Origin: Patescibacteria group bacterium
GTDB lineage: Bacteria > Patescibacteriota > Microgenomatia > UBA12405
Length of the DNA: 64,000 nucleotides
Assembly (NCBI GenBank): GCA_013387215.1
Contig: WARW01000001.1
Span: forward strand, 119,301-183,300
Direction: 5' to 3'
The number at the start of each line of letters is the position of its first letter. Within the stretch, counting starts at the first letter, position 1. A program made the translations under genes and the position numbers. The notes below the pieces were generated by a model that had not been told where the DNA came from, did no database searches, and saw only the letters and a list, made by a program, of their open reading frames with translations. Shown piece after piece: positions 5,451-45,740 of the stretch.

Positions 5451-5460
5451 TTTGTTCCAC

Positions 5461-23798: not shown

Positions 23799-23818
23799 AA
23801 ATCATTAAATAATTAACC

Positions 23819-25328: not shown

Positions 25329-25360
25329 TTATTATCTCTTATTTAAGCCAAAATATACAC

Positions 25361-25552: not shown

Positions 25553-25582
25553 AATATTTTTTGATTTATTTATAAAGTTCGT

Positions 25583-26044: not shown

Positions 26045-26163
26045 ATTTATGTTTATGTAACCATTTTTACTATTAACTGGTGGTTAATGAAATATACCAT
26101 TATTCTGGTTCAAATCATAACCAGTGGTTAATAAACTTATATTGGATAGATTGGTAACTTTGT

Positions 26164-26385: not shown

Positions 26386-26406
26386 GTAAATAGTAGACAA
26401 GTTTGA

Positions 26407-27472: not shown

Positions 27473-27478
27473 AAAAAT

Positions 27479-27985: not shown

Positions 27986-27988
27986 AAT

Positions 27989-28750: not shown

Positions 28751-28752
28751 AT

Positions 28753-30302: not shown

Positions 30303-30643
30303 TTCACAAGTTTTCTGGTTAGCCAAGAAAAAGTCTTATTTTATAATTTTTAATAACAGTGTAAATTGATTAAATATTATCGTGGAGATAGGGGGTAATT
30401 TGTTTTAGTAGTTATTAAATTACTTTACATAAAAATACTCATAAATATACACCAAAAAAGACATAATTGAGTACAAAACTAATTCAATAGTATTCTTTAT
30501 TTCAAAATTCTAAAAAGATTTTATGTAGATAATTTAGATTATTCACATGGTCGTTAACTCGTCATAAAAAGGCAGTTAGTAAGAGGTAATTTTCGTAAAA
30601 CAGTGGTAAATTATGATACATCTAAAAATAGATAAAAATACAA

Positions 30644-31216
30644 ATGACAGTAGAAGAAATTGAAGAAATACTTGAAGCTGGAAAAGAGACCCAAAAGGTT
30701 GATTATAAAGAGTCGTGTCCTTGGGATGAATTTACATTTATTAAAGACTTTCTTGCGATGGCAAATAATCAAGATGGTGGAATGATTGTAATCGGAATGA
30801 AAGAAGATGGTCAAACATTTACGAGACAAGGAATAATACCAGAACACAAAACTACTTATAAGATTGATGTTATGAAAGATAAAGTTGGCAAGTACGCCGA
30901 CCCTTATGTTTTTTTTGATGTTGACTTTCCAAAAGACAAAAACGGTCTTGAATATGTCGTAATAACTATATCCCCATTTGATAAAGTACCAGTCATTTGT
31001 AAAAAAGATGGTAAAGAAAATTTTGTAACAATCGGAAGTATTTACCATCGCGGATTTAATAGGCGAGCTGAGAGTACAAGAGTTTCAAGTTATTTTGATA
31101 TGAGAGAAATTATTGAAAGAGCAACAGTTAAGATGATGCAACACTTTGAAAAATTAGATTTAAAACCATCAAAAACAATAGAGGATAAATTTAAATCAGA
31201 AAGAGGTGACCTATGA
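30644..31216 (+). CDS. AlbA_2 (Schlafen-like) domain protein
   Basis: ETQKVDYKESCPWDEFTFIKDFLAMANNQDGGMIVIGMKEDGQ matches the AlbA_2/Schlafen core (E..d.K.....i.AfaN..GG.i.iGv.d.g). Confidence 0.5.
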   Translation: MTVEEIEEILEAGKETQKVDYKESCPWDEFTFIKDFLAMANNQDGGMIVIGMKEDGQTFTRQGIIPEHKTTYKIDVMKDKVGKYADPYVFFDVDFPKDKNGLEYVVITISPFDKVPVICKKDGKENFVTIGSIYHRGFNRRAESTRVSSYFDMREIIERATVKMMQHFEKLDLKPSKTIEDKFKSERGDL

Positions 31217-31938
31217 CAAGTAATGAAATAATTGCCAAGATTAAAACTAGAGGATATTGGAGAATTGTTTTTGAACCATTAGAGTTTATACCTGATAAGT
31301 ATCCTATTTCAGACTGCAAGGAACTAGTCAATAAAAACAAAGTTAGTATGAGAGGTTGGGACTACCCTCATTATCCTGTTAGACAAGATGATGATTCAAA
31401 ACTTGAACCTGGGAATAACTATTGGCAAGGATGGATTGATTGGGAAAGATATAAAGAATTCTGGAGGTTTTATCAGAGCGGACAATTTGTTCACTATCTT
31501 GGTGTTCGTGAGGACTGGTCGGAAGACATCATTTTCAAAAATATGTGGGAGCAAGGCGATAGAACAATAAAACCAGGAGAGGCGCTCGGGGTAGTAAGTA
31601 CAACCTTTTTAATGACAGAAATTTTTCATTTTTTATCACGACTTATGATTGATGGGGTTTATCAAACAGGTGTAAAAGTCAAAATTTCGCTGATAAATAC
31701 AAGCAATAGACAACTTTTTATTGAGTCTTTTGATAGGGTGCCATTTACTTCACCAAGAACTACTGCAGGTTCAGAATTAAATTACGAAATCACCTTGTCA
31801 AAAGGTGATTTACTGACCGATATAAATAAAGCTGCCGAACAAGTAATTGTATTTTTCTATAAAAGATTTGGTTGGGACCCACCTAATATAGAAGTAATCA
31901 AATCAGACCAAGAAAAACTTGTAAGTGGAAGATTGTAA
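31213..31938 (+). CDS. hypothetical protein, translationally coupled to the AlbA_2 gene
   Basis: ATGA start/stop overlap with the upstream gene; no recognisable motif. Confidence 0.35.
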   Translation: MTSNEIIAKIKTRGYWRIVFEPLEFIPDKYPISDCKELVNKNKVSMRGWDYPHYPVRQDDDSKLEPGNNYWQGWIDWERYKEFWRFYQSGQFVHYLGVREDWSEDIIFKNMWEQGDRTIKPGEALGVVSTTFLMTEIFHFLSRLMIDGVYQTGVKVKISLINTSNRQLFIESFDRVPFTSPRTTAGSELNYEITLSKGDLLTDINKAAEQVIVFFYKRFGWDPPNIEVIKSDQEKLVSGRL

Positions 31939-32132
31939 ATAGTATATCAAAATGTATCAGTAGTATATTTGAAAATATTATAAAAATATAAGTAAGAAAT
32001 GTTTTTATCAGTCAAAGTTCTTTTTATCCTTATTTTTCTATTCACAAACCGCTTTACTGGGCTTACATTCAAAAGTGATGGGTGGGGTATATCTTAATCA
32101 AAATGTACAAGAGATATTGATACAATTCCAAT

Positions 32133-32981
32133 ATGACTACAAATTGGGTAAAAGCTTACAATGCTGGTTACGATTCAGCAAGTCAAACATTCAGAACCCA
32201 TCTAAACTATGTTAAATGCATGGACAGGCTTACTCTTGGTTTGAGTATTACAGTAAACAATTCTGCAAGTCAAACATTATCAAAACAAAAAATAGCAAAG
32301 TTTGAAACTTTGGCTCATATTACTGAAATTAGTATTGGCGGAGAAAAGACTGCATGCGACAATCAAAAGGAATATGCACAGGTGGCATCACCTTGGATAC
32401 CTGTTAAGTGTTACTACTACCTATATTATCTTGAATCTGTATTCCTTTATTTACTAAACAGTTCTGAAGCTGGATTTAACCATAATGGTCACTCAACTGT
32501 GAAAAGCATGTTGTTATCAATGATAAAAAATAATGAGATTACTTTAGTTGGTTCTGGGTCGTCAAGTTTGTCAACCATCACTACATGGCTCCAAGCTGAT
32601 AATTTTAAAACACCAGGTTCAACACTTAGCCCAAGCTATCATTCATCTACAGACTGTGAGAACTCATTGAGAGGAAAAATTGCTGAATACATTGAGGTTG
32701 ATTGGAAACAGAGTTTAAAAATAAAAGACTATAAAAAAAATACAGCTAAAAATCTGAAGGTAACTCTTCTCCAACCAAAAGAATTCTGTTTATTGGACTA
32801 TTTTTACTGGATGAGAATCAAATCAAATTATCGCGATATTGATTTTCTTGATTTTGATAATAATGTAAATGAAAGTGATGCCTATGAGTATTTAACATAT
32901 TATATTAAAACAACTTTTCAGTATGCCAATGCACTAAAATCTTCTATTCAAGCTTTAAAACAAAATAGGGGAATGGTGTAA
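32133..32981 (+). CDS. hypothetical protein
   Basis: 282-aa ORF; no motif. Confidence 0.3.
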   Translation: MTTNWVKAYNAGYDSASQTFRTHLNYVKCMDRLTLGLSITVNNSASQTLSKQKIAKFETLAHITEISIGGEKTACDNQKEYAQVASPWIPVKCYYYLYYLESVFLYLLNSSEAGFNHNGHSTVKSMLLSMIKNNEITLVGSGSSSLSTITTWLQADNFKTPGSTLSPSYHSSTDCENSLRGKIAEYIEVDWKQSLKIKDYKKNTAKNLKVTLLQPKEFCLLDYFYWMRIKSNYRDIDFLDFDNNVNESDAYEYLTYYIKTTFQYANALKSSIQALKQNRGMV

Positions 32982-33020
32982 AAGTCTTAATTTGTTAGTC
33001 AAAATGATATCATTTGTCTA

Positions 33021-33479
33021 ATGATTGAAGAAAAATTAAATTCAGTATTAACGGGGGTATCTGGGGAATATTTTGTAGCTGCAGAATTGTCTAAAAGAGG
33101 ATTTTTAGCTTCAATTACTTTAAGAAACACCAAGGGTGTTGATATTCTTTGTTCAAACTCAGATGCATCCAAAACAGTCGGAATACAAGTTAAATCAAAC
33201 AAGGGTTCAAATAGAAGTTGGATATTAAATCAAAAAGCTGAAGATTATTTTGCTGATAGTCTGTTTTATGTTTTTGTTTGTCTGAATGATAATCAAAAAC
33301 ATCCTGATTATTTTATTGTTCCAAGTAAGGTTGTTGCCAATTACTGCAAGAGCGGTCATTCAAATTGGCTAAAAACACCAAGCAAGAAAGGACAACAACA
33401 CAAAGATACTCCAATGAGAAAATTTGACGACCCAAAAGAAAATTATTTAGACAAATGGAATTTATTACTAGGGGAATAG
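33021..33479 (+). CDS. PD-(D/E)xK-type nuclease-like protein (DUF4365-like)
   Basis: GEYFVAAELSKRGF...GVDILC...VGIQVKSN fits the D...(E/Q)xK restriction-endonuclease-like core. Confidence 0.4.
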   Translation: MIEEKLNSVLTGVSGEYFVAAELSKRGFLASITLRNTKGVDILCSNSDASKTVGIQVKSNKGSNRSWILNQKAEDYFADSLFYVFVCLNDNQKHPDYFIVPSKVVANYCKSGHSNWLKTPSKKGQQHKDTPMRKFDDPKENYLDKWNLLLGE

Positions 33480-33506
33480 TCAGTTGTTTAATTGTTTATT
33501 TTTAGA

Positions 33507-35063
33507 TTAAAACCCACAAACAGCAGTCCTGATTGAATCTAGGACGGGGAGCAAGTTGCTTGTTAATATAAGTGATTTTTGTTTGATCAGCTCAGCCACT
33601 AAAGGAGAATATTCCACACTTACAATGTTTTTATTATCCACATTAATTCTATTGAAGAAAAAATTTAAATATCTTCTTTTAAGAAAAACGGGGGAGTTAG
33701 AATAAGTTTTTGGGATATTTCTTGTAATGGAGAGCACTTCTGAAAGCAAATCAAAATCAAATTCTCTATTCGTATCCAATTTAGCCAATTCAGTATTTAC
33801 ACAATAAATATCATTCTGAATAATCGGATTTTGTGCTTTATAGTCTTCAGGTTCAATAGTTTCATCAAGTAAACGTGCCAATAAAATCTCAGCCTTTTTA
33901 GTTAACTCATTCTTCCTTCTCATAAGTCTATTTCTTTCCTTATCCTCTTCCTTTTTTCGCTCTTTTAGATATCTCTTTATTTTTACGACTAAAGCATTTG
34001 TAAACGCTTTTGAAAATTTAATATTTTGGAAATAGTTTTCAACCTTTCCTTCTAATTCATTTACTTCAACGCTTGGAGCATCACACGGAAACCTTTTGGC
34101 GCAATGATATATGCCATATTTTCCATCCCATTTTGCAAACTTAACATTATCATAATGATATTCTGCGGTATATCTCTGACCGCAACGATCACAAAAAATA
34201 ACGCCTCTTAAAAGGAAATCGTATTTTCTTTCCCTTATAATAAAATTTCTATGTTTAGCAGCTACCTGTTGGCACAAATCGAATGTCCGTTTAGAAATCA
34301 AAGGAATATGTTTACCAAGTTTTTGCTGCCCTTTCCATTGCATTAGACCATAATAAAAAGGATTGGTTAGAATTTTATTCATTGTGGAATGTGCTAATGG
34401 TTTTCCAGTTCTTGTTCTTAACCCCTTTTTTGATAAAAAGCTAATAAGACGAAACAAACTATAATTACCAGTCGAATATTTTTTAAAAGCAAGTGTAATA
34501 AAAGGACTAATTTTCTTATCGATTACAACTATTCCTTTATTATTCTTCCTTTGATTTTTGTAACCTAAAGGTGCCCATCCAGGCCACCAACCTTCTTCCC
34601 ATTTTCGGTCTAACCCTCTTTTAGTTTTTCTACTCAGGTCTTCTGAATAAAATTGATTTATACCTGCCATAAATGTATCCAACATCTTTCCTTCTGGAGA
34701 TTCGTCAAGCATAGGCTGTACAACCGAGATTAGTCTTGTGCCCACCGCTTTTATTCTTTCTTTAATTAAAAAATGGTCTGTTGCATTACGAGCGAATCTA
34801 TCGGTGTTATATACAATTATTGCTGCAGGTTTTATTGTATCCACCTGCTCTAACATTTTTAGAAATTCAGGTCTGTTTGAAACCGTAGCACTTTGACCTT
34901 CATCAACAAACGTATTTAAAACATTGTAATGTTGCCTTTTAGCCTCTTTTAGACAAATATCTTTTTGAGCATCAATAGAGTACCCTTCTTTTGCTTGTTC
35001 TTCAGTAGAAACTCTACAATAAATAAAACAATTTAATTTATTATTATCGTTTTCCATATCCAT
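33507..35063 (-). CDS. large serine recombinase 2
   Basis: N-terminus FIYCRVSTEEQAKEGYSIDAQ (catalytic Ser), recombinase domain and zinc ribbon (CDRCGQ...YHC). C-terminal tail PVLDSIRTAVCGF is encoded antisense to the relic tRNA 3' half, parallel to recombinase 1. Confidence 0.8.
   Translation of the reverse strand: MDMENDNNKLNCFIYCRVSTEEQAKEGYSIDAQKDICLKEAKRQHYNVLNTFVDEGQSATVSNRPEFLKMLEQVDTIKPAAIIVYNTDRFARNATDHFLIKERIKAVGTRLISVVQPMLDESPEGKMLDTFMAGINQFYSEDLSRKTKRGLDRKWEEGWWPGWAPLGYKNQRKNNKGIVVIDKKISPFITLAFKKYSTGNYSLFRLISFLSKKGLRTRTGKPLAHSTMNKILTNPFYYGLMQWKGQQKLGKHIPLISKRTFDLCQQVAAKHRNFIIRERKYDFLLRGVIFCDRCGQRYTAEYHYDNVKFAKWDGKYGIYHCAKRFPCDAPSVEVNELEGKVENYFQNIKFSKAFTNALVVKIKRYLKERKKEEDKERNRLMRRKNELTKKAEILLARLLDETIEPEDYKAQNPIIQNDIYCVNTELAKLDTNREFDFDLLSEVLSITRNIPKTYSNSPVFLKRRYLNFFFNRINVDNKNIVSVEYSPLVAELIKQKSLILTSNLLPVLDSIRTAVCGF
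33513..33550 (+). other. degenerate copy of the tRNA-Asn 3' half (attR-like relic)
   Basis: CAGCAG-TCCTGATTGAATCTAGGACGGGGAGC aligns with tRNA-Asn positions ~39-73 (CGGCAGGTCCTTGGTTCGAGTCCAAGCGGGGGAGC). It has the same orientation as the tRNA and is overlapped antisense by the C-terminus of the second serine recombinase. Confidence 0.45.
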
Positions 35064-35391
35064 TTAACTAAATAATTAATAATATAATCTAACGGTTATT
35101 TAGGACAACTTTTATCATTATTAATATTATTTTCTAATCCATTCTTGCTAAGACATTCTTTCGATTTATCTACATTCAATACTTGTATTTTCTTCTGGCT
35201 TTGCTGATATTCAATAGTAGCCATTGCTATTTCAAACCACTGGTTTACAGCTGTATCTAAGCTGCTTTCCGTTAAAGCAGGTAATTTTTTACCTATATCC
35301 ATAAAGACTCCTTACTCACATCCATAAGTGCGGATACTTATCAGGAGCCTGTGGATAGGCTTTGAACGAGAATTAATTAATAATTAATAAC

Positions 35392-35706
35392 TTACATAGT
35401 TATATTTTTTGCCTTATATAACTCATTTTTAAATCTATCAACGCTTTCTAATAGGTCGATAGGGTGAATCATTGGCGCTGTCCGGTTATAAAAGGCGTTA
35501 ATAGCCTTGATGACTATTGCTTCAGGTGAAAATTTAAAATAAATTATTCCGGCAATTTCTTCAGTTCCAAGATAATTCAATTCAGGTAATAAAAAAAGGA
35601 AAGGTATAAGGCGTTTGTCTTTTTCGAAATGTATTTTATAGTTTTGCTTATCCATAATAAATCCATAAATTAGGTGAATGGTAAATAATAAAAAAAACCG
35701 CGGCAT
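35392..35706 (-). CDS. hypothetical protein
   Basis: 104-aa ORF flanked by a 12-bp direct repeat CCTGTGGATAGG (35348-35359 and 35739-35750). Confidence 0.3.
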   Translation of the reverse strand: MPRFFLLFTIHLIYGFIMDKQNYKIHFEKDKRLIPFLFLLPELNYLGTEEIAGIIYFKFSPEAIVIKAINAFYNRTAPMIHPIDLLESVDRFKNELYKAKNITM

Positions 35707-35879
35707 TCACCTCGGTTTCACTTTCGAATAAGCTCTTCCCTGTGGATAGGGATTAAACCTATATAAACGATATCAAATGATATCTTTACTGTCAAACATT
35801 AGGAAAAGACACTTAATCACCCCTCTTTTACCCCCTTTATAGCACCTATAAAACACCTAAGTCTTACACGAATCAGAAA

Positions 35880-36212
35880 TTAGTTGTTATATTTCAAGTT
35901 AAAAGCATCATCCGACATGGACAAGTATATAATCCCTTCAATAAAGCTAACTAACCAAAGAATTACCAGTCCTATTCCAAATGTGAGTAAGCTAATTACT
36001 AAATAAATTATTCCGACTTTGCTTTTTCCTAAATAAAATTTGTGGATTCCTAAACCCCCTAAGAAAAAGGCAAATAAGGCAGCTCCTACTTTAGATCTAT
36101 TTTCTTTCTTTAAAGAAGGTTGTCTAACTCCACACTTAGGGCACACCTCTGCTTCTTCAAATAACTCATTTCCACACTTATAACAGAACTTTTTACTGTT
36201 ATTATCCACCAT
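35880..36212 (-). CDS. zinc-ribbon plus TM2-domain membrane protein
   Basis: CYKCGNELFEEAEVCPKCG zinc ribbon followed by the TM2 domain (GGLGIHKFYLGKSKVGIIYLV...). Confidence 0.5.
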   Translation of the reverse strand: MVDNNSKKFCYKCGNELFEEAEVCPKCGVRQPSLKKENRSKVGAALFAFFLGGLGIHKFYLGKSKVGIIYLVISLLTFGIGLVILWLVSFIEGIIYLSMSDDAFNLKYNN

Positions 36213-36375
36213 AACTGTATTATATATGATTTGTAATATTTCTCAACTTTAGTCTAAAAAGTAAGACTAATATTTATAAATAATTTGAACAGTAATTTCT
36301 GTAATTTTTAACCAAAAAGAACAAATCTCTTGTTTAAATTTTTGTAATAGTGAGTACAATATCAGTAAATCGTAT

Positions 36376-37818
36376 ATGGATCTAAGATTTTCAAAATATT
36401 TTAAATTAGAAAAAAAACAGCATGAGCTTGATTTTGTTGATGTACCTTTAAATACTGATATTCGACTATTTATTGACCCTTACACGCTCTCTATAAGAAG
36501 CGACGAATTTTCAATGCAATGTAGCAATATAGTTATAAATTTTTTTCAAAGAATAATTGATGATATTAAAGACGGTCGATTTGAAAGTGCAAAATATAAC
36601 TTGAATAGACTTAGAGAACCTAATGAAACACACCTTGGTTTATCAAATGAAAATCCAATAGGTAAAGGAGTAAGTGGTAAACAGTCAATCGATATTTTTG
36701 AAAAATTAAAAAATAGTAGAGCTACAAAAACTGGTTTTTTAAAAGATTTATCTGATTGTGAATTGGTAATACCAGGGATTAGTAGGGATAAAATTTCCGA
36801 CATAGTTACTAATATTATTAAGATAAAATTATTAGAATATACACAGGCACAGTGTAATACATATAATATTCCCACCATTCCCGTTTCTTCAGGAAAATAT
36901 TGGAATCCCCAAAAAGGTATATGGGAAGAAGAATATTTTAATTTGCCTGTATATAAAAATAAAAAAATTATTTTAGTTCCTAAAGCAATTGTTCGTTATA
37001 CCTTAGAATACAATCAAAAAAAATATTACAATGGTTTCGTTTTAGAGTTTCTGCAGGAAGAACATCTCAATGCCAATACAGCCTTAGTACAATTGTTAAA
37101 AAATGGTACAAGAAGGGTAACTAAAAAGGATTTAAAAAAAGATCCTCGTTATAAACCAACAAAACAATTTTTATATGAATTTTCTAACGAGCATCCAGAA
37201 GTATTCGAGAAATACACTGACTCTCTACCTGAAAATGTTCCTTCATTATCAAATGAACAAATAGAGGCTAAACAACAAATTAGTGAAGATTTCGATTATG
37301 ATGCTTTAATCGAAAATCTTAAAAAGATTCCTACTGGTAAAGAAACTGAAGACGATTACCACAACTTGATAATAGGTATCTTAGAAGTAATTTTTTATCC
37401 AAATTTATTTAGCCCAGAAAAGGAAGTTCGAATTCATAATGGTAGGAAAAGAATAGATATTACTTATCAAAATGCAGCTAAGGATGGATTTTTTGAATAC
37501 ATAATTAACCACGTACCTTGTCCCTTTATTATCGCTGAATGTAAAAACTATAGTGAAGATCCTCAAAACCCAGAACTCGATCAATTAAGCGGTAGGTTTT
37601 CACCAAGAAGAGGTAGATTCGGCTTTTTAGTTTGTAGAAAAGTTGAAAATAAGGATTTGATGGATCAAAGATGTAAAGATACCGCGTGTGATGATAGAGG
37701 TTACATAATGGTGTTAGATGATAATGACTTGATAACTCTTATTAATTTTAGAAAAAGAAATGATCAACAATCGATTGAAGATTTTTTAACTAAAAAATAT
37801 AAAAACTTAGTAATGTAA
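36376..37818 (+). CDS. protein with C-terminal PD-(D/E)xK nuclease domain (first gene of a three-gene operon)
   Basis: C-terminal RIDITYQN...PFIIAECKNY...GFLVCRK matches the D...ExK restriction-endonuclease-like core; N-terminal ~330 aa of unknown function. Confidence 0.4.
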   Translation: MDLRFSKYFKLEKKQHELDFVDVPLNTDIRLFIDPYTLSIRSDEFSMQCSNIVINFFQRIIDDIKDGRFESAKYNLNRLREPNETHLGLSNENPIGKGVSGKQSIDIFEKLKNSRATKTGFLKDLSDCELVIPGISRDKISDIVTNIIKIKLLEYTQAQCNTYNIPTIPVSSGKYWNPQKGIWEEEYFNLPVYKNKKIILVPKAIVRYTLEYNQKKYYNGFVLEFLQEEHLNANTALVQLLKNGTRRVTKKDLKKDPRYKPTKQFLYEFSNEHPEVFEKYTDSLPENVPSLSNEQIEAKQQISEDFDYDALIENLKKIPTGKETEDDYHNLIIGILEVIFYPNLFSPEKEVRIHNGRKRIDITYQNAAKDGFFEYIINHVPCPFIIAECKNYSEDPQNPELDQLSGRFSPRRGRFGFLVCRKVENKDLMDQRCKDTACDDRGYIMVLDDNDLITLINFRKRNDQQSIEDFLTKKYKNLVM

Positions 37819-37820
37819 AA

Positions 37821-38558
37821 ATGAAGAAGATACGAAGAAGTAGCTTAAGAAGCCATAAGATAAAAAACAAAGAATTGGAATCTATATTTTCAGGATTAAA
37901 AATGAGCCAAGTTTACTGGCATAAAGATTTGCTTCCAGAATTTTTCTGGATAGAAGCACTTGTTAATTATTATGGAGAAGAGAGAGCAAATCATTATTAC
38001 AACGAATTTTTAGATTCTATTGAAAAGATATTTATTAATAATTCAAATATATATATTGGTATAGTAAGTGATTTTGGAGATATACCAGAAAAATATAGAA
38101 ATAAAATTGTAGAAAATAATAAATTATTAATTGAAGATGTAATTTACAAACCATTTGCGAATATTATAAAAATTTATCCAAATATTCCAATGAAATGGTT
38201 ATTGCAAGGTTTTGACTTATCAAAGATCGATGAACAAGATGGAATAAAACAAGTTGTTGAAGCTATTAAAAGACTGTATCCTGCAAAGGATAATCATTGT
38301 GGTTTTTGTAGGGCAATTCCACTTAATAGATATTTTAAACATAAAAAAATATTTCTAACGTCAAATTTAGCAGAAACAATAAAAGCAGTTGAACAATATC
38401 CATTGGGAGATAGATACAGGGTTGAAACTTTAGCAAGAAATATAATTAACCACGATATCTTAAATAAAATTAACTCTTGTATGATCTCTGATAAGTTACT
38501 TTGGTCAAAAGATTTTTGGTGTACTAATTATAAATTGACAAAATGTGATGAACAATGA
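37821..38558 (+). CDS. hypothetical protein (operon gene 2)
   Basis: Starts 3 nt after the upstream stop; no recognisable motif. Confidence 0.35.
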   Translation: MKKIRRSSLRSHKIKNKELESIFSGLKMSQVYWHKDLLPEFFWIEALVNYYGEERANHYYNEFLDSIEKIFINNSNIYIGIVSDFGDIPEKYRNKIVENNKLLIEDVIYKPFANIIKIYPNIPMKWLLQGFDLSKIDEQDGIKQVVEAIKRLYPAKDNHCGFCRAIPLNRYFKHKKIFLTSNLAETIKAVEQYPLGDRYRVETLARNIINHDILNKINSCMISDKLLWSKDFWCTNYKLTKCDEQ

Positions 38559-39355
38559 TTTCAAAAAAACAAAGAAGCTCTATAAATAAACTCAGACAAG
38601 CAACTAATCGCGGAAGAATAATGATTGATGATGTATTAGAGATCATCAGGAACCAAGTAGACAATCAACAAGTAAACATATATGAACCAGAAGAAAACGA
38701 AGTGATAAATGGATTATTTTTTAGAGTTCTACGTTTTTATCACTCTTATGTAATAAGTTTTCACTTTTGGGCAGAAGATATGCATAGAATAATTACAAGA
38801 ACCATTATTGAATCATTTATTTATCTTTCATATTTAATAAATACCAATAAAAAAGAAATCTACCTGGAATTTATTAAATATGGTATTGGTCAAGAAAAGT
38901 TATATAAACTCCAATTAGCAAAATTAATTGAAGAGAAAAAAATACAACCGTCAAGTGAAATAATAGATTATATAAATTCTGATAGTGATGAGGAAATTTG
39001 GGATGAATTAATATCAATAAAATTAAAAAATTTTGAGGACTTGAGAAAACTGTCAAATAAAATAAACGAAAGCGAACTTTACAGTATTAAATATCAACCC
39101 TATTCTGATGTCATACACGGACATTGGATGGCTTTAAAAAAATATTATCTAAAGAAATGTTCTAACCCAATGCATAGATTTCATTACATACCAAACTTTA
39201 TATTGCCAAACATTAATCCAATAGGTTTAGTTGAAATTACTAATCTCTTTTATCAATGCTATTTATTATGGATTAAGAAAAATAATTTTGAAAATAAAAT
39301 TGAGAAAGTAATTGATTCTTATCTAAATGATTTAAATCAAATATTCTCAATATAA
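38555..39355 (+). CDS. hypothetical protein (operon gene 3)
   Basis: ATGA overlap with the gene 2 stop; no recognisable motif. Confidence 0.35.
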   Translation: MISKKQRSSINKLRQATNRGRIMIDDVLEIIRNQVDNQQVNIYEPEENEVINGLFFRVLRFYHSYVISFHFWAEDMHRIITRTIIESFIYLSYLINTNKKEIYLEFIKYGIGQEKLYKLQLAKLIEEKKIQPSSEIIDYINSDSDEEIWDELISIKLKNFEDLRKLSNKINESELYSIKYQPYSDVIHGHWMALKKYYLKKCSNPMHRFHYIPNFILPNINPIGLVEITNLFYQCYLLWIKKNNFENKIEKVIDSYLNDLNQIFSI

Positions 39356-39461
39356 AATTAAATATCTACACTGAGTGTAAGACCAGTCGAACCAAAATTA
39401 TTTATAACATCAATTATTTTTTTAATCGATTCATTTATATTAAGACTTGGACTGGGGAGCA

Positions 39462-39650
39462 TTAGTTTAATAATGAGTCAAAATCATTTCTTTTAGTCTT
39501 ATAATTACTTTCATCAAAACTAAATTCTTTTAATATTTCACAGCCTTTGGTTTGGTAATATTTCTTTAGTCTCTCAACCTCAGCTGGGAATGATATTCCA
39601 GCCTCTTTTTGTTCGTCTGTACCAACCCGCGCAATTATTATTGATTTCAT
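39462..39650 (-). pseudogene. serine recombinase/resolvase N-terminal fragment with catalytic Ser replaced by Gly
   Basis: MKSIIIARVGTDEQ...LKKYYQTKGCEILKEFSFDESNYKTKRNDFDSLL aligns to the resolvase N-terminus (ARVSTdeQ ... G.sG....R.gl..LL) but stops after 62 aa; S to G at the catalytic position. Confidence 0.55.
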
Positions 39651-40865
39651 TTATTTCCCGGATTTAATGCGGTTGTCATCTTTACAAAGCATTTGACAGT
39701 TGGCATAATCTGTTTTACCGCCTAATCTCCAAGGTTTTATATGATCAGCTTCCATTTCACCATATTCAAAATGTGCATTACCACAAACAGCATTTTTAGC
39801 GACACAAATACCTTTTTGTTCATTGTATTTTTTAATCTTAGTTTTCTCGTCAAATGTACGTAAACTCAAAGTTCGTTCATCACCCGTTAAGACATACTCA
39901 TAGATGCCTCTTTTATTCTCTACTTCATCATCGTCAATCAATTCTATAATCCTCTTTTCCAAAGTTTCAGAATTTAAACTCTCATCTTTATGTTGGTTAT
40001 AAAACCTTCCCCATTCCAAACCTTTCATTAACTGTACGCGAACACTCGTTTGGTTAGGGAAAACTTTATTCGCCCAATCAACTACATTGCGATAGTAACC
40101 ACGAATCTCGTCAGCGTTCTCGGTGTTCTGGTGATCAGCCATATACTCCTCAATACCCTTATGACTATTGTCGTAATCATGACTAATCCAACGTAAGGCC
40201 GTTTCTAAAATTTTTTGCCTGTTTGCTTCGCCAGTAACAAGATTTTTACCAAGTTCAATTGCTGGCCCGCCGGTTTTACTAAAAAATCTTTTTGCATCCA
40301 TTAGCCATTTACCGGTATAGTTTGCATTGCGAATTTCTTGGGGTGTTTGTTCCAGACCAGCAATATTTATAACATTAAACCATGTTATTTTTTCATTTGG
40401 TGTGCCTTCACAAATATAAATTGACAATTCATAGTCTAAAAACTCATTTTGCTGATCGCGAGTTAAATTGCTAAACTTTTTAGGAGCACCTTCCCAGTTA
40501 ATTGAAAACTCACCGCTTAAATACTGACCTTGCTCACCAATTTCTGCCTTGGTAATATCGCCCACATACTGACAGATACTTATAGTGCGTTGTTGACCAT
40601 CTATTACTTCGTATTGATCATTGCCGATTTTTGCCCAGTACATCACATTGAGGGGAAAGCCATGTCGGACAGTTTCTATTACCAAATTTCGTTGTTTCTC
40701 ACCGTATACAAAGTTGCGCTGAAAAGCCGGACGAATGTTTAACTTACCACCGTAACCAACAACTGGTCCTTCTTGCTCACTTTCGTCGCAGTAACCTGCA
40801 ACTAAATCACGAACAGTTATTTTTGGTGCTCCATCCTCACGACCGGAGAGTTTAATTTGCATCAT
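39651..40865 (-). CDS. DUF262 (ParB-like) plus DUF1524 (His-Me finger/HNH) nuclease, GmrSD-like
   Basis: N-terminal VIDGQQRTISI (DGQQR motif of DUF262/GmrS). C-terminal ADHIKPWRLGGKTDYANCQMLCKDDNRIK (HNH-like DUF1524). Confidence 0.65.
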   Translation of the reverse strand: MMQIKLSGREDGAPKITVRDLVAGYCDESEQEGPVVGYGGKLNIRPAFQRNFVYGEKQRNLVIETVRHGFPLNVMYWAKIGNDQYEVIDGQQRTISICQYVGDITKAEIGEQGQYLSGEFSINWEGAPKKFSNLTRDQQNEFLDYELSIYICEGTPNEKITWFNVINIAGLEQTPQEIRNANYTGKWLMDAKRFFSKTGGPAIELGKNLVTGEANRQKILETALRWISHDYDNSHKGIEEYMADHQNTENADEIRGYYRNVVDWANKVFPNQTSVRVQLMKGLEWGRFYNQHKDESLNSETLEKRIIELIDDDEVENKRGIYEYVLTGDERTLSLRTFDEKTKIKKYNEQKGICVAKNAVCGNAHFEYGEMEADHIKPWRLGGKTDYANCQMLCKDDNRIKSGK

Positions 40866-41923
40866 TATGTTATCTCCTTTCTTTTAATAAAAATACGTGC
40901 ATAAATAAGTTTATATTCATCGCCAACTTTTATAGAGCCGCGCCTGTTTAAGTCGCCATATTTAGGGCTATCGGCAGATGTGTAAACTCTTGTTTTCAAA
41001 CCTGAGTTATTATCTCTATCAGTTATCCCTAAAATCTCAAATTGATCAGGGTTGTACTTATCCAGAAAAGTTATTGGCACACCCATTGGCTCAAAATAAT
41101 CTTCGGGAATATCTTTAACCTTGTCAATTTCTATTGCGTCGTAGTTATCATATTTTGGATATTGTTCTGGTAAATAGCGTCTATATAAATCTAATGGTTC
41201 GTGGCGTTTACTGACATCTAAATTTGTATACCAACCTTTATTTCCAAATTTTTTCAGTGTTCCGTTTGGTTGCATAAACTCTTTTACTCTTTTATAACCG
41301 CGCCAAATTTTATTATTTTTGATCAACGGAAAAACTTCTTTTAAAGTAATCCAGTTATCATCCCCAATTATTAAAAATTCTTTTTTGTATTCAAATAATT
41401 GCGCAATGTATTCACGCGCCAAACTAAAAGGAGGATTAGTACACACAATGTCTGCTTCTTTTAATAATTCAACACACTCGGCGCTTCTAAAATCGCCATT
41501 ACCTTTGAGGGGTGTCGCAACATTTTTATTATTTTGCAACAGCCACTGTACATCGGAAATATCCACTGCACCATCATTATTGCTGTCGGGCACCTGATTT
41601 ATTTCTATTTTGAGTGGTGTTTTATTTTTTCTCGATGATACTATCTCACGCGCACCAGCAATGTCACCGATTGATAATTGCGTGAAAGCTATAGGTGATG
41701 GAATGTAACTCGTGGCAATCAGTTTCCTAAGTCCTAATGCATTAAAACTGCTAGCAAAATATTTAAAGAAATTGCTCTCAAACGGATCATCGCAATTCAG
41801 AAGAACTATTTTATTTCTAAACTGCATTGTATAGTATCTTAGCTCGTTTTCTATATCGGCAAGTTGAGTGTAGAACTCATCGTTTCTTACCTCTCTGGCC
41901 TTAATTAGATTTGTGTTAGTCAT
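40865..41923 (-). CDS. DNA methyltransferase (amino-methyltransferase, NPPF motif IV)
   Basis: Motif IV DIVCTNPPFSL and N-terminal SAM-binding-like region (LLNCDDPFESNFF). Stop overlaps the start of the DUF262 gene (ATGA). Confidence 0.6.
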   Translation of the reverse strand: MTNTNLIKAREVRNDEFYTQLADIENELRYYTMQFRNKIVLLNCDDPFESNFFKYFASSFNALGLRKLIATSYIPSPIAFTQLSIGDIAGAREIVSSRKNKTPLKIEINQVPDSNNDGAVDISDVQWLLQNNKNVATPLKGNGDFRSAECVELLKEADIVCTNPPFSLAREYIAQLFEYKKEFLIIGDDNWITLKEVFPLIKNNKIWRGYKRVKEFMQPNGTLKKFGNKGWYTNLDVSKRHEPLDLYRRYLPEQYPKYDNYDAIEIDKVKDIPEDYFEPMGVPITFLDKYNPDQFEILGITDRDNNSGLKTRVYTSADSPKYGDLNRRGSIKVGDEYKLIYARIFIKRKEIT

Positions 41924-42235
41924 AAATATTTCAATTCATTAATATTTTGATCAAGGTCTTCATTTTTAACCCAACACTCTTGTAAATATAAAAATTTATC
42001 TTCTTATAAATGTAATATATATCACAATAAATAACATATCAACAACCAATACTTCTCGTCATAACTATTAATTTGTGATTTACCAGCCAAACAATTTTCT
42101 CTAGGCGATTAAGTTACAAAAAAAGATTTTAAAGGGGACATCGTTAATTAAACGATAAAGTACTAGATCGAAATTACTCCGCTAAGATAGCTAGTAAAAA
42201 TTAATCAAAATATTAAAAATGTTACACTTAAATCA

Positions 42236-42823
42236 ATGAACCAAGTAGCAAATGAAATCGCATTAGGAATTTTAAAAGCTATTCCTTGGTGGCTTTGGGT
42301 TATTATCATAATTTTTGCCATTCTTGGACCAGAAGAGAATATCCGTCGCCGTCGTCATTCATATAAAACAAAAGGTATTTTAGAAATCTTTGTTGATTGG
42401 ATTTGGTATCAATTAGCTGAAAAGAAAAAAATTGAGAAATCAGGTATTAATAATATTGACCGTATGAGCGGTTATCAATTTGAAAAATATTTAATCAATC
42501 TTTTTATTCGTCTTGGCTACAAAGTTCGTCATGTTGGAAGTAATTACTATCAGCATCATGGTGATTTTGGGGCCGACTTAATTGTTGAAAAAGATGGTGT
42601 TAAAACCGCCGTTCGAGCCAAAAACTATAATAATCTAGTGGGTATTGAAGCTGTTCGTCGAGTTCTTGGTGCTATTAACTATTATCAATGCCAAAGGGGA
42701 ATTGTTGTTACTAATAATTTCTTTTCTTTCGACGCTAGAACTCAAGCTAGTGTGAGTAATGTTGAATTGTGGGATCGAAATAATCTTATTGATGTTATTT
42801 CTAAATTAAACACCAATAAATAA
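42236..42823 (+). CDS. membrane-anchored Mrr-cat (restriction endonuclease-like) domain protein
   Basis: N-terminal TM helix plus RRRRH; Mrr_cat-like core (QFEKYLINLFIRLGYKVRHVG...GDFGADLIVEKDGVKTAVRAKNY). Paralog of 45063..45740. Confidence 0.55.
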   Translation: MNQVANEIALGILKAIPWWLWVIIIIFAILGPEENIRRRRHSYKTKGILEIFVDWIWYQLAEKKKIEKSGINNIDRMSGYQFEKYLINLFIRLGYKVRHVGSNYYQHHGDFGADLIVEKDGVKTAVRAKNYNNLVGIEAVRRVLGAINYYQCQRGIVVTNNFFSFDARTQASVSNVELWDRNNLIDVISKLNTNK

Positions 42824-42852
42824 GTGGGGATATTTATTCTATCGAGTAGAAA

Positions 42853-44496
42853 TCAATAACTACTTTTTATATAGTAGTAACCAATCAATCCTATGATAAT
42901 TATCCAAAACAAATAAATACTTATAGCTCCCGCAATAATTAAAACAATACCAATCAAAACTATATTCCAATATTTTTTTTGATTTGTTTCATATTTTTGC
43001 CTTGTTTCTCCAAAATAATCCAAAATATATTGCCACCTATCCGTTGCTTTTATATATCCAAGCATCTTTTGTAACTCTGACTCTTCAATCTGTTTGATTT
43101 GTATTTTTTCTTCGTTGGTTAGTTTCTTCTTACTGCTTTGTAAAGATTTTTCATTAATATACCTCACTAAACCAGCATCACCTTCTCCAAAAAATAAGAC
43201 TGCTTTTGATTTTTTACCGTCTCTTCCAATTCTTCCCATTTGCTGGTAATAATCTTCAATGTTTTGAGGAATACACCAATGTATAGCAATTCTAATATCA
43301 GGAATATTTACACCCATTCCAAAAGCCGAGGTACAAATTAATACTTTCCATTTTGATGGAACAGTTCCTTTGTATTCATCTTGAATTCTTATTTTGTCTT
43401 CTCTGTTTTGTTTGCCATAAAAGAATTCGCAGTTAACATCTTTTCTTACGAGTTCCCTCCAAACCAAACTTCCTATTTTGATTGTTGGCACAAATATAAT
43501 GATTCTTTCATCGTTGTATTCACTAATTATATTAATAATTAAATTTATTTTTTCTTCATCAACTTGTTCCTTTTGACCGTCAAATATTTTTACATATAAA
43601 TCAATTTCTGGTCTGTAAAATCCGGTCACAAAAACAGCAGGATGAACCAGTCCTAATGAAGTAATAATATTTTGTTGTACACGTTTTGAAGCTGAAGCAG
43701 TTAAAGCTATGGTTTTGGGATACCCCAACACCTTTCTTAACTCTTTAAGTTGTGCATAAGAAGGTCTAAAACTTCGGCCCCATTTATCAATACAATGTGC
43801 TTCATCAATAGCTAATAAATCAAATTCATTTTGTAGAAGGGGATGATTAAGTTTAATTTTATTGTCCTGGTATTTATCAAAAAATTGTTCTGGTGCCACA
43901 TAAATAAAACGAAACAATTTTTGAGCAAACATACTTAATCTATTTTCTTTTTCTTCTTGTTCCAAGTCACTATTAATAAATGTTGCAGGAATTCTTTTTT
44001 CCCATAAATTTTCCACCTGATCTTTCATTAATGCTTTCAGCGGTGTAATTACCATTGTTTGATTTTCCAAAGCGATGCCTGGTAATTGAAAGCAAACTGA
44101 TTTTCCTGAACCTGTTGGCATAACAACTAAAACATCTCTACCATTAAGCACAGCTTTAATAATTTCTTGTTGATGTAATCTAAATGTTGTTTTGTGGGTA
44201 AGAAGATAAAGTAATTTTTTTAAATCTTTCTGTTCGGGAAGTTGTAATACATTTCTAAAAAGATTGTTTAATCTAAAAACGATATCTGAAAAATATTTTG
44301 TTTGATATTCGATGTGTTTGCTTGAGTGGCATGTTCGACACAATGTTACAAGATTTGACGGATTATTTTCACCACCCCATTTTTCTGGGATTACATGATG
44401 AATATTTAAATTCTCTTTACTGCCACATTCGATGCACTGATGATGGTCTCTATTTAAAACTAAATTTCTTATTTCGTCCGATAAATATATTTTCAT
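42853..44496 (-). CDS. HNH endonuclease fused to RecQ-family DEAH helicase, with C-terminal TM helix
   Basis: N-terminal HNH (HHQCIECGS...NIHHVIP...NLVTLCRTCH). Helicase motifs I VVMPTGSGKS, II DEAH, V TSAFGMGVNIPDIR, VI QQMGRIGRDG. Hydrophobic C-terminal 35 aa. Confidence 0.7.
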   Translation of the reverse strand: MKIYLSDEIRNLVLNRDHHQCIECGSKENLNIHHVIPEKWGGENNPSNLVTLCRTCHSSKHIEYQTKYFSDIVFRLNNLFRNVLQLPEQKDLKKLLYLLTHKTTFRLHQQEIIKAVLNGRDVLVVMPTGSGKSVCFQLPGIALENQTMVITPLKALMKDQVENLWEKRIPATFINSDLEQEEKENRLSMFAQKLFRFIYVAPEQFFDKYQDNKIKLNHPLLQNEFDLLAIDEAHCIDKWGRSFRPSYAQLKELRKVLGYPKTIALTASASKRVQQNIITSLGLVHPAVFVTGFYRPEIDLYVKIFDGQKEQVDEEKINLIINIISEYNDERIIIFVPTIKIGSLVWRELVRKDVNCEFFYGKQNREDKIRIQDEYKGTVPSKWKVLICTSAFGMGVNIPDIRIAIHWCIPQNIEDYYQQMGRIGRDGKKSKAVLFFGEGDAGLVRYINEKSLQSSKKKLTNEEKIQIKQIEESELQKMLGYIKATDRWQYILDYFGETRQKYETNQKKYWNIVLIGIVLIIAGAISIYLFWIIIIGLIGYYYIKSSY

Positions 44497-44628
44497 CTAT
44501 AGATTATTTTTACACTTGTTTATAAAAGTAATAAAGTAAACAATCGTAAATGAAAAACAAAACCACTTTGACAATTGATTAAACTTTGTGTTCATTTTTC
44601 ATTCATTTTCTCATTATATAATTTCGTC

Positions 44629-45042
44629 ATGAAAAACATTGTAAAAATCGGCTACATTTTATTTTTGTTTTTAGTTCTGCCAATTTTATTTATAAAACCT
44701 ATACAAGCTAAAAGTGGATGTTGCTCACATCACGGAGGAGTTTGTGGTTGCGACACAAATATTGGTAGCCAGGTTTGTTGCGATGGCTCTTATAGTCCAA
44801 CTTGTGGCTGTACAATCGTTAAAAAACCAACACCTACACCTATTAAAGTTGTTAAAACCAATCCTCTTGTTCAAAACAAAACAATTAAAACTATGAAAAT
44901 TACCATACCTCAAGTAAAGAAAAGCGGTACAGGTATTTGTCATCAAAAAGGAAGTACTTATTATAACCAAACTCTTAAATTCACTTCTTATAATTCTCTT
45001 CAAGAATGTTTAAAATCTGGTGGGAGATTACCAAAAAGATAA
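44629..45042 (+). CDS. secreted cysteine-rich small protein
   Basis: Signal peptide/TM, then SGCCSHHGGVCGCDTNIGSQVCCDGSYSPTCGC (10 Cys in 35 aa). Start set at the second Met (MKNIVKIGY). Confidence 0.35.
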   Translation: MKNIVKIGYILFLFLVLPILFIKPIQAKSGCCSHHGGVCGCDTNIGSQVCCDGSYSPTCGCTIVKKPTPTPIKVVKTNPLVQNKTIKTMKITIPQVKKSGTGICHQKGSTYYNQTLKFTSYNSLQECLKSGGRLPKR

Positions 45043-45062
45043 TTTGTAATATACTTAATTAA

Positions 45063-45740
45063 ATGACACAAACAGTTGGTATGGGTGACATAATTTGGCA
45101 AATAGTTAAAGGAATTCCTTGGTGGTGTTGGATAATTATACTAATAAGTGCTGTTGCAAGCCCGACTACTAGAAGAAGATATAAAAGACGTAGGTATTAT
45201 AGTAATTACAATAAATCTCTATTCGATGAAATAACTGATTCTATGGTTAATTTTATATTGAACTGTTTCAAAAGAAATTTTTCAGTAAAAAGACAAACTT
45301 TTTCGCAAACATACGCAACTAATTCCACTCAACAATCTACTATGAACCAAGAATCAAGTATCTGGGAAATTGATCAAATGACTGGTAGAGAATTTGAAAA
45401 ATATTTAGAAAAATTATTTATTAAACTAGGTTACAAAGTAAATAGGGTTGGAACGTGTTGGTATGACCATAGAGGGGATTTTGGTGCCGATTTGATTGTT
45501 GAAAAAGATGAAATTAAAACTGCAATTCAGGCTAAAAATTATAAAAATAATAATTTAGTAGGAATTAATTCTGTAAGAGAAGTTATCGGTGGTCTTAGTC
45601 ATTATAATTGTCAAAAAGCTGCTGTTATAACAAACAGTTATTTTACTAATGATGCTAAAGTTCAAGCAGGGGACAGTAATGTGAAATTACTTAATAGAGA
45701 TGATTTAATTAAACTCATTTCACGAACTGAAATAAAATAA
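45063..45740 (+). CDS. membrane-anchored Mrr-cat domain protein (paralog)
   Basis: Same architecture as 42236..42823 (TM, RRRYKRRR, Mrr_cat core REFEKYLEKLFIKLGYKVNRVG...GDFGADLIVEKDEIKTAIQAKNY); ~60% identical over the C-terminal domain. Confidence 0.55.
   Translation: MTQTVGMGDIIWQIVKGIPWWCWIIILISAVASPTTRRRYKRRRYYSNYNKSLFDEITDSMVNFILNCFKRNFSVKRQTFSQTYATNSTQQSTMNQESSIWEIDQMTGREFEKYLEKLFIKLGYKVNRVGTCWYDHRGDFGADLIVEKDEIKTAIQAKNYKNNNLVGINSVREVIGGLSHYNCQKAAVITNSYFTNDAKVQAGDSNVKLLNRDDLIKLISRTEIK

What the first reader, a model, noticed from the sequence alone, without database searches (positions are those of the whole stretch)
39440..41923. Methyltransferase paired with a DUF262-DUF1524 (GmrSD-like) nuclease, next to a dead resolvase fragment and a scrambled att-like sequence
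GmrSD-type enzymes are normally modification-dependent (type IV) and stand alone. Here the DGQQR plus HNH-like nuclease gene is translationally coupled (ATGA) downstream of an NPPF amino-methyltransferase, which suggests either a non-canonical R-M pairing or methylation that protects self from the nuclease. Immediately downstream is a 62-aa resolvase N-terminus with catalytic Ser replaced by Gly (ARVGTDEQ). Next to it, the sequence GCTCCCC-AGTCCAAG resembles a rearranged tRNA-Asn 3' end, as expected at an old recombination junction.
Basis: partly seen in the sequence, partly recalled or inferred. Interest (0 to 1): 0.5.

Follow-up and report, generated by a model that had tools for sequence, protein, structure and literature searches.

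The report
Mobile methylase–nuclease restriction cassette, BanLI type
This is an intact copy of a very widespread but barely studied two-gene restriction-modification cassette (an EcoRI-family adenine methylase plus a DUF262-HNH nuclease), left behind in a stack of integrated mobile elements at a tRNA-Asn gene; it is ordinary as a member, but the family itself looks mechanistically unusual.

Summary
The three ORFs exist as described, with corrections. The methyltransferase (40865..41923, -) is a full-length EcoRI-family N6-adenine enzyme with NPPF. The nuclease (39651..40865, -) is DUF262 with an invariant DGQQR, plus a classical zinc-bound HNH (PF01844), not DUF1524. The genes overlap as TAATG, not ATGA.

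The pair is not a stray GmrSD. Both proteins match PADLOC's Type II models end to end. In 75 of 77 genomes from many phyla the same methylase sits directly upstream of the nuclease. The only studied relative I found is BanLI of Bifidobacterium animalis (RTC-m6A-GG, one strand, weak restriction); I could not align its sequence.

The 62-aa ORF is the N-terminus of a large serine recombinase with its catalytic Ser changed to Gly. The att-like sequence is real. GGGGAGC occurs only three times in the window, each at the 3' end of a recombinase gene or fragment, the first being the tRNA-Asn end. This marks a tandem array of integrated elements.

The unexpected result concerns the family. Nearly identical nucleases (97%) pair with methylases whose C-terminal segment is unrelated. 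This suggests the nuclease takes its target from the methylase. Verdict: a new member of a known kind, of moderate interest.

The parts
40865..41923 (-). EcoRI-family N6-adenine DNA methyltransferase gene (352 aa); NPPF at 41426..41437
40904..41023 (-). Hypervariable, cassette-like C-terminal segment of the methylase (residues ~301-340), the presumed target-recognition element
   Evidence: Mean pairwise identity here is 0.11, against 0.59 for the methylase core. Length varies from 18 to 99 aa. The boundaries are sharp: it starts after GVPITFLDKYNPDQFEILGI and ends before Y.RI.IK.K. The window shares its type with L091 and resembles L012, but not its closest relatives L006/L010.
39651..40865 (-). 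DUF262 (ParB/Srx-like, DGQQR at 40587..40601) plus classical HNH (39672..39806) nuclease gene, 404 aa
39462..39650 (-). Remnant (62 codons) of a large serine recombinase gene; catalytic Ser replaced by Gly (codon at 39621..39623)
   Evidence: The fragment aligns with the N-termini of the L006 recombinase (39% identity) and of the two intact window recombinases. The closest relative has a 507-aa Resolvase+Recombinase+Zn_ribbon gene at exactly this position. The Pfam Resolvase match scores 21.7 bits, below the 23.3 cut-off.
39446..39461 (+). att-like, tRNA-3'-end-like repeat CTTGGACTGGGGAGCA at the junction between element 2 and the cassette remnant
   Evidence: It holds one of only three GGGGAGC copies in the window, and all three lie at recombinase 3' ends. 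It matches 33540..33555 at 15 of 16 positions with one indel.
42014..42042 (-). Promoter-like site (TTGATA-17-TATATT) about 90 nt upstream of the methylase start
   Evidence: This is a consensus scan only. The number of such sites in the region is not above the shuffled expectation.
33507..35063 (-). Intact large serine recombinase 2 (518 aa) of the neighbouring element; its 3' end carries the partner att-like repeat at 33540..33555
   Evidence: Pfam finds Resolvase, Recombinase and Zn_ribbon_recom. PHROG integrase matches at E 8e-89. The repeat is shown.
21524..21599 (+). tRNA-Asn (GTT), the integration site of the tandem array; its 3' end overlaps the 3' end of recombinase 1 (21558..23216, -)
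   Evidence: ARAGORN calls the tRNA. Pfam annotates recombinase 1. The recombinase C-terminus WLPRLDSNQGPAA is encoded antisense to the tRNA.

Best explanation
The locus is an intact two-gene restriction-modification cassette of the BanLI type.

Shown: the first gene encodes an EcoRI-family, gamma-type N6-adenine methyltransferase. The second, translationally coupled gene encodes a nuclease with a ParB/Srx-like DUF262 domain (DGQQR, a nucleotide-binding motif in relatives) and a zinc-bound HNH active site. The 2.28-kb cassette moves as a unit between unrelated contexts. Here it is what remains of a small integrative element whose large serine recombinase has been deleted down to 62 codons and has lost its catalytic serine. 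It sits third in a tandem array of recombinase-borne elements at tRNA-Asn, inside a low-GC defence island.

Inferred: the methylase marks adenines in a short, probably asymmetric site on host DNA, and the nuclease attacks DNA that lacks the mark. Near-identical nucleases are found with methylases that carry unrelated C-terminal (target-recognition-like) segments, and the nuclease has no variable region of its own. I therefore think the nuclease does not read the sequence itself. It would be directed or licensed by the methylase, which is Type III-like logic, with the DUF262 domain acting as an NTP-dependent switch in place of a helicase motor.
For: Family identity:
- Both proteins have full-length Pfam and PADLOC Type II matches.
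- The same two models hit members from Bifidobacteriaceae, Enterococcus, Macrococcoides and an archaeon.

Conserved operon:
- The methylase lies directly upstream on the same strand in 75 of 77 species-representative loci with room, and in 5 of 5 plasmids examined.
- The spacing is mostly -4 to +5 nt.

Intactness:
- The window carries the consensus at 62/63 and 94/96 near-invariant residues.
- dN/dS is 0.07-0.08 for the nuclease and 0.20-0.27 for the methylase.

Cassette mobility:
- L091 shares 83% DNA identity over exactly window 41931..39651 and nothing outside it.
- L006 and L010 have different flanks.

Element history:
- In L006 the cassette is followed by a 507-aa serine recombinase that reads into tRNA-Pro.
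- The L006 element is flanked by 16-nt direct repeats.
- The window has three recombinase 3' ends, each with GGGGAGC.

R-M behaviour of a relative:
- BanLI has a methylase that its authors aligned with M.EcoRI and a 43.5-kDa R protein later said to be annotated as a DUF262 protein.
- It methylates RTCAGG on one strand and gives 10-fold restriction of P1vir (PMC3990576; PMC13091528).

Methylase-directed targeting:
- L041/L052 nucleases are 97% identical, while the methylase C-terminal segments are 15% identical.
- L011/L012 give 85% against 17%; window/L006 give 86% against 19%.
- Methylase length is 316-428 aa, against 358-375 aa for nearly all nucleases.
- Two intact nucleases lack the methylase nearby.
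- One 688-aa methylase-nuclease fusion exists.
Against: - No experiment on this protein or a close relative exists.
- The sequence link to R.BanLI is indirect, because I could not obtain its sequence.
- BanLI restriction was weak, and its authors suspected a defective system.
- That the hypervariable methylase segment sets specificity is an analogy with other gamma-type methylases, not a test.
- If that segment does not set specificity, all members could share one site and the nuclease could read it itself.
- The methylase-nuclease fusion is a single cluster and could be a frameshift artefact.
- The two orphan nucleases might have a methylase elsewhere in the genome.
- Expression in this host is unknown; the promoter match is not above chance.
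Confidence: 0.6

Rival explanations
1. This is a classical Type II (or IIS) system. The nuclease recognises the same DNA sequence as the methylase on its own, and the two proteins act independently.
For: - REBASE-derived PADLOC models file the pair as Type II REase and MTase.
- The BanLI authors treated it as Type IIS.
- HNH enzymes include many sequence-specific Type II REases (general knowledge).
- The central helical region of the nuclease (residues ~190-340) could bind DNA.
Against: - Nucleases 97% identical, with 10 scattered differences, accompany methylases with unrelated C-terminal segments. That would be lethal if those segments set specificity and the nuclease had a fixed site.
- The nuclease has no hypervariable region across phyla.
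- Intact nucleases exist without the methylase nearby.
Confidence: 0.25
2. This is a Type IV, modification-dependent GmrSD-like nuclease. It stands next to a methylase that has another role, such as protection from other enzymes or from the nuclease's own off-target action.
For: - The locus lies among Type IV-like Mrr genes.
Against: - There is no DUF1524.
- The methylase partner is present in 97% of loci and is translationally coupled, which is unlike stand-alone Type IV genes.
- A nuclease that depended on the mark made by its own operon partner would be suicidal.
- The BanLI clone restricted unmodified phage and was tolerated in E. coli.
Confidence: 0.05
3. In this genome the cassette is a silent leftover. 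It is carried along with the dead recombinase and no longer expressed or active.
For: - The adjacent recombinase is reduced to 62 codons, with Ser changed to Gly.
- The upstream genes of the L006-type element (HTH_17 and others) are missing.
- One near-invariant methylase residue differs (A169 for F), although L006 and L010 share it.
- The promoter match is not above chance.
Against: - Both ORFs are full length with all catalytic residues.
- dN/dS is 0.07-0.27 against relatives.
- R-M pairs resist loss because losing the methylase first is harmful (general knowledge).
Confidence: 0.1

Closest known systems
BanLI restriction-modification system of Bifidobacterium animalis subsp. lactis (REBASE; PMC3990576)
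   Same: - The methylase is EcoRI-like and lies upstream of an R gene of about 43 kDa that is annotated as a DUF262 protein.
- An integrase gene is adjacent.
- GC content is atypical for the host.
- Protein sizes fit the family medians (42.5 and 41.3 kDa).
- Both are filed as Type II.
   Different: - I made no direct sequence comparison.
- BanLI's site (RTCAGG, one strand) cannot be transferred, because the window methylase has its own type of variable segment.
- The window nuclease clade carries a 15-aa insertion after DGQQR.
- The neighbouring integrase here was a serine recombinase.
GmrSD / BrxU / SspE family (DUF262 + DUF1524)
   Same: - The N-terminal ParB/Srx-like DUF262 domain has an invariant DGQQR.
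- A helical middle region is followed by a C-terminal His-Me finger nuclease.
- The proteins occur in defence islands.
   Different: - The nuclease domain is the classical zinc-bound HNH (PF01844), not DUF1524.
- The protein is about 200 aa shorter.
- It is almost always paired with a methylase.
- It is expected to attack unmodified rather than modified DNA.
Type III restriction-modification (for example EcoP15I)
   Same: This is a proposed working analogy only. The methylase carries a variable recognition element and the nuclease subunit is constant. The studied relative methylates one strand of an asymmetric site. The M-then-R operon is tightly coupled.
   Different: - The nuclease has no SF2 helicase/ATPase.
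- The methylase is of the EcoRI (gamma) type, not the beta type.
- No M-R complex has been demonstrated.
M.EcoRI methyltransferase (Pfam PF13651)
   Same: The match to the family model is full length, with NPPF and a gamma-type order: SAM-binding loop, then NPPF, then a C-terminal variable domain.
   Different: The partner nuclease is unrelated to R.EcoRI. The specificity is unknown and probably not GAATTC.
Integrative elements with large serine recombinases that insert into tRNA genes
   Same: - The recombinase gene lies at the element end and is convergent with the tRNA.
- Direct repeats of the tRNA 3' end flank the element (L006).
- The elements accumulate in tandem at one tRNA.
   Different: Here the third recombinase is a 62-codon remnant, and the repeats are short and degenerate.

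Membership tests
BanLI-type Type II R-M (PADLOC REase_II PDLC03418 + MTase_II PDLC03297) | Nuclease matches the family model over its whole length | tested here: met
   The match covers residues 15-404 against model positions 7-372 of 372, E 1.2e-111.
BanLI-type Type II R-M (PADLOC REase_II PDLC03418 + MTase_II PDLC03297) | EcoRI-family N6-adenine methylase with NPPF | tested here: met
   PF13651 matches 1-345/345, E 5.5e-122, and PDLC03297 at E 1.2e-99. NPPF is at residues 163-166.
BanLI-type Type II R-M (PADLOC REase_II PDLC03418 + MTase_II PDLC03297) | Methylase directly upstream of the nuclease on the same strand, tightly spaced | tested here: met
   The window has a 1-base overlap. The family shows this arrangement in 75 of 77 loci, with -4 the commonest spacing.
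BanLI-type Type II R-M (PADLOC REase_II PDLC03418 + MTase_II PDLC03297) | Sequence homology to R.BanLI and M.BanLI themselves | not tested
   The sequences were not obtainable. The link rests on descriptions in the papers.
BanLI-type Type II R-M (PADLOC REase_II PDLC03418 + MTase_II PDLC03297) | m6A methylation of a defined motif, and restriction of DNA that lacks it | not testable with these tools
   This needs a methylome and plaque or transformation assays.
GmrSD family Type IV enzymes | N-terminal DUF262 with DGQQR | tested here: met
   PF03235 matches at E 1.2e-18. DGQQR is invariant.
GmrSD family Type IV enzymes | C-terminal DUF1524 nuclease domain | tested here: not met
   There is no PF07510 match at E <= 0.01. 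PF01844 HNH with four zinc cysteines is present instead.
GmrSD family Type IV enzymes | Stands alone, without a cognate methylase | tested here: not met
   The methylase partner is present in 75 of 77 loci.
GmrSD family Type IV enzymes | Cleavage depends on modified bases | not testable with these tools
   This needs biochemistry.
Type III R-M | Res subunit with SF2 helicase motifs | tested here: not met
   No helicase domain appears in Pfam or NCBIfam scans of the nuclease.
Type III R-M | Nuclease depends on the methylase for site recognition | tested here: inconclusive
   A constant nuclease pairs with methylases whose variable segments have been swapped. This fits the feature but is indirect.
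Large serine recombinase (the 62-aa ORF) | Catalytic serine in the N-terminal resolvase domain | tested here: not met
   Gly stands at the aligned position: ARVGT against ARVST.
Large serine recombinase (the 62-aa ORF) | Complete resolvase domain plus Recombinase and zinc-ribbon domains | tested here: not met
   Only 62 residues remain. The Pfam score is below the cut-off. Intact relatives are 507-552 aa.

The most novel reading that the evidence does not exclude
The DUF262-HNH / EcoRI-family methylase pairs, filed in databases as ordinary Type II systems, may be a distinct mechanistic class of restriction-modification. In this reading a constant nuclease has no sequence specificity of its own. 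It is aimed or licensed by a methylase with an exchangeable recognition cassette, and it uses a ParB/Srx-type nucleotide switch where Type I and Type III enzymes use a helicase motor. The window copy would be a representative of this class. The family occurs in at least 589 species-representative genomes, and two protein searches were each capped at 8000 hits.
Probability: 0.4. Interest if true: 0.7.

Novelty: new member of a known kind. Interest (0 to 1): 0.35.

Why it matters
For this genome, the result explains a 2.5-kb stretch as a working-looking defence cassette. It also dates the cassette within a stack of three integrated elements at tRNA-Asn.

More broadly, the family is very widespread. 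It was found in at least 589 species representatives, including an archaeon, and forms 322 clusters at 50% identity with E <= 1e-30. Only one member has been touched experimentally.

If the nuclease really borrows its specificity from a methylase with a swappable segment, these would be compact two-gene systems of about 750 aa whose specificity can be changed by exchanging roughly 40 residues. That would interest people working on R-M evolution, those reading methylomes, and those looking for programmable nucleases.

Tried and rejected
- Sequence searches of both proteins against the PDB found nothing.
- The exact window nuclease is not in the assembly index.
- Literature searches on DUF262 with EcoRI, HNH, REBASE or methylome terms, and on PF13651, produced only the BanLI link.
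- I tried to reach R.BanLI by searching from a Bifidobacteriaceae family member. The search returned only unnamed metagenomic proteins.
- I aligned the att-like piece to tRNA-Asn and scanned the whole window with it. The similarity is no better than several unrelated hits. The case for the piece therefore rests on the placement of GGGGAGC.
- I looked for a conserved third gene between methylase and nuclease in loci with a gap. The inserts are unrelated to each other.
- I considered a link between the nuclease's clade-specific 15-aa insertion and the methylase segment type. There is none: window/L091 and L006/L010 share the insertion but differ in segment type.
- I considered a phage origin. 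There are only 6 weak or partial phage records and no PHROG function.
Full report
**What is there.** The minus strand carries three consecutive ORFs: 40865..41923 (352 aa), 39651..40865 (404 aa) and 39462..39650 (62 aa).

The first ORF is a full-length EcoRI-family adenine methyltransferase.
- Pfam PF13651 matches 1-345 of 345 positions, E 5.5e-122.
- NPPF lies at residues 163-166.

The second ORF is a nuclease with two domains.
- An N-terminal DUF262/GmrSD_N domain covers residues 44-183 and holds the DGQQR motif.
- A C-terminal classical HNH domain (PF01844) covers residues 361-402.
- No DUF1524 is detected.

The methylase stop codon and the nuclease start codon share one base (TAATG).

The third ORF matches the resolvase N-terminal domain just under Pfam's cut-off, at 21.7 against 23.3 bits.

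**It is a known kind of pair.**
- PADLOC's REBASE-derived models match both proteins end to end: REase_II PDLC03418 at E 1.2e-111 and MTase_II PDLC03297 at E 1.2e-99.
- The same two models hit members from a Bifidobacteriaceae genome, Enterococcus and Macrococcoides plasmids, and a Nitrosopumilus genome.
- The nuclease has thousands of close homologues, 57-60% identical across candidate phyla radiation bacteria, Proteobacteria and others.
- At 50% clustering there are 322 clusters with E <= 1e-30.
- A scan of one genome per species found at least 589 species with a relative.
- Among the 80 loci kept, 77 had room upstream, and 75 of those carry the EcoRI-family methylase directly upstream on the same strand.
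- All five plasmids examined show the same arrangement.
- The commonest spacing is a 4-base overlap.

The methylase partner is therefore the rule for this nuclease family, not an oddity.

**The only studied relative I could find.** BanLI of Bifidobacterium animalis subsp. lactis is an integrase-M-R cluster. Its authors aligned the methylase with M.EcoRI, and the R protein is 43.5 kDa.
- Genomic DNA carries m6A in RTCAGG on one strand only.
- The cloned pair reduced P1vir plating ten-fold in E. coli (PMC3990576).
- A 2026 paper states that the REBASE R gene for RTCAGG is annotated as a 'DUF262 domain-containing protein' (PMC13091528).
- The reported sizes fit the family medians.

I could not obtain the BanLI sequences, so this link is indirect.

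**Intactness.**
- The window nuclease carries the consensus residue at 94 of 96 near-invariant columns. These include DGQQR, the four zinc cysteines, and D374-H375, N389 and N398.
- The methylase carries the consensus at 62 of 63 such columns.
- Against the closest relatives, dN/dS is 0.07-0.08 for the nuclease and 0.20-0.27 for the methylase.

The methylase model has pLDDT 82 and a complete Rossmann fold. It is closest to the gamma-type adenine methylases MmeI and M.TaqI among solved DNA methylases.

**The cassette is mobile, and its surroundings explain the other two observations.**

DNA similarity to relatives covers only the two genes.
- L091 matches window 41931..39651 at 83% identity and nothing beyond.
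- L006 and L010 match the same stretch with different flanks.

In L006 (nuclease 86% identical) the cassette is followed at once by a 507-aa large serine recombinase.
- The recombinase's 3' end runs into a tRNA-Pro gene on the other strand.
- The ~7.3-kb element is bounded by direct repeats TCGGGGAGAGAGGACT.

The window's 62-aa ORF sits at exactly that position and aligns with the recombinase N-termini. It has Gly in place of the catalytic Ser. It is thus the stump of such a recombinase.

The window also holds two intact large serine recombinases on the same strand.
- One is at 21558..23216, overlapping the 3' end of tRNA-Asn.
- The other is at 33507..35063.

The heptamer GGGGAGC, which is part of the tRNA-Asn 3' end, occurs only three times in the 64 kb. 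The three positions are 33 and 39 nt inside the 3' ends of the two intact recombinase ORFs and 8 nt beyond the stump. By my simple calculation the chance of that placement is about 4e-7.

The stump's copy matches the copy at recombinase 2 at 15 of 16 positions. As a bare sequence match this is no better than chance hits elsewhere, so the argument rests on position.

The picture is a tandem array at tRNA-Asn, downstream of dnaG-rpoD:
- element 1, about 21.6-33.5 kb;
- element 2, about 33.5-39.45 kb;
- the cassette remnant.

The cassette has 36% GC, against 29-31% for the rest of the island.

**The unexpected part concerns the family.**

The nuclease is uniformly conserved, at 358-375 aa in nearly all members, with no hypervariable stretch. 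The methylase varies from 316 to 428 aa and has two variable regions.

The C-terminal variable region corresponds to window residues ~301-340. It begins sharply after GVPITFLDKYNPDQFEILGI and ends before a conserved Y.RI.IK.K. It is replaced by unrelated sequence between close relatives, while the nuclease hardly changes:

| Pair | Nuclease identity | Methylase C-terminal segment identity |
|---|---|---|
| L041 / L052 | 97% (10 scattered differences) | 15% |
| L011 / L012 | 85% | 17% |
| window / L006 | 86% | 19% |

The same segment types recur in distant lineages.

In gamma-type methylases the recognition domain lies C-terminal to the catalytic core (established knowledge). If this segment sets specificity, a nuclease with its own fixed site could not survive such swaps. 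I therefore infer that the nuclease is aimed or licensed by the methylase, as in Type III systems, with the DUF262 domain as a nucleotide-dependent switch.

Weaker observations point the same way:
- the one-strand, asymmetric methylation of BanLI;
- two intact nucleases with no cognate methylase within 4-6 kb;
- a locus with M, a truncated R, a second M and an R;
- a single 688-aa methylase-nuclease fusion, which may be an artefact.

None of this is a test. The classical Type II reading remains possible.

**Verdict.**
It is an R-M pairing, but not an unusual one for this nuclease family, and the enzyme is not a GmrSD.
- The locus is a new member of a known, database-listed kind.
- The interest lies in the family's likely non-classical mechanism, which the comparative data here make directly testable.

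Noticed in passing
window 21524..39461: A tandem array of integrative elements sits at tRNA-Asn. Each large serine recombinase ORF runs antisense through a tRNA-3'-end-like sequence. The C-terminus of recombinase 1 (WLPRLDSNQGPAA) is encoded by the antisense of the tRNA itself, and recombinase 2 keeps a similar LPVLDS peptide.
   Followed up: partly
window 9324..9398: ARAGORN calls a tRNA-Ile with anticodon TAT, next to two tRNA-Met(CAT) genes. I recall this anticodon being uncommon in bacteria; I did not check.
   Followed up: no
window 36376..39355: The cargo of element 2 looks like defence genes. One is a PDC-M36A candidate (PADLOC E 2e-49; PHROG 27295 E 3e-118). The other is a DitA-like protein split into two overlapping ORFs (37821..38558 and 38555..39355, the latter DUF5677).
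   Followed up: no
window 42236..45740: Two paralogous Mrr_cat nucleases have N-terminal hydrophobic stretches that look like membrane segments (42236..42823 and 45063..45740). They flank an HNH-RecQ-like helicase (42853..44496) that matches DpdF and PsyrT models and ends in a hydrophobic tail.
   Followed up: no
window 26753..31216: Element 1 carries a run of small zinc-ribbon proteins, an M48 peptidase and an RDD-family protein. A Schlafen/AlbA_2 domain protein follows at 30644..31216.
   Followed up: no
L066 3536..7068: This locus holds a methylase, a 123-aa truncated nuclease, a second methylase and a full nuclease in a row. It looks like a half-finished cassette exchange.
   Followed up: partly
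P0376 (688 aa, from the representative library): A single protein joins an EcoRI_methylase part to DUF262 and HNH. It is either a natural methylase-nuclease fusion or a frameshift in a gene pair that normally overlaps by four bases.
   Followed up: partly
L044 3561..5616 and L074 3400..7065: These loci hold intact family nucleases without the EcoRI-family methylase. One is preceded at 1-nt spacing by a RhuM-family gene. The other follows an m5C methylase, an NgoFVII-type restriction gene and a small ORF (5454..5846) with a weak ORF6N match.
   Followed up: partly
L006 3344..3535: A 96-bp tandem duplication at the far end of the tRNA-Pro element contains the att direct repeat twice.
   Followed up: no
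window 40520..40564 (nuclease residues 101-115): The window, L006, L010 and L091 nucleases share a 15-aa insertion (DITKAEIGEQGQYLS) right after the DGQQR helix. It is absent from the rest of the family and is modelled with low confidence (pLDDT < 50).
   Followed up: partly
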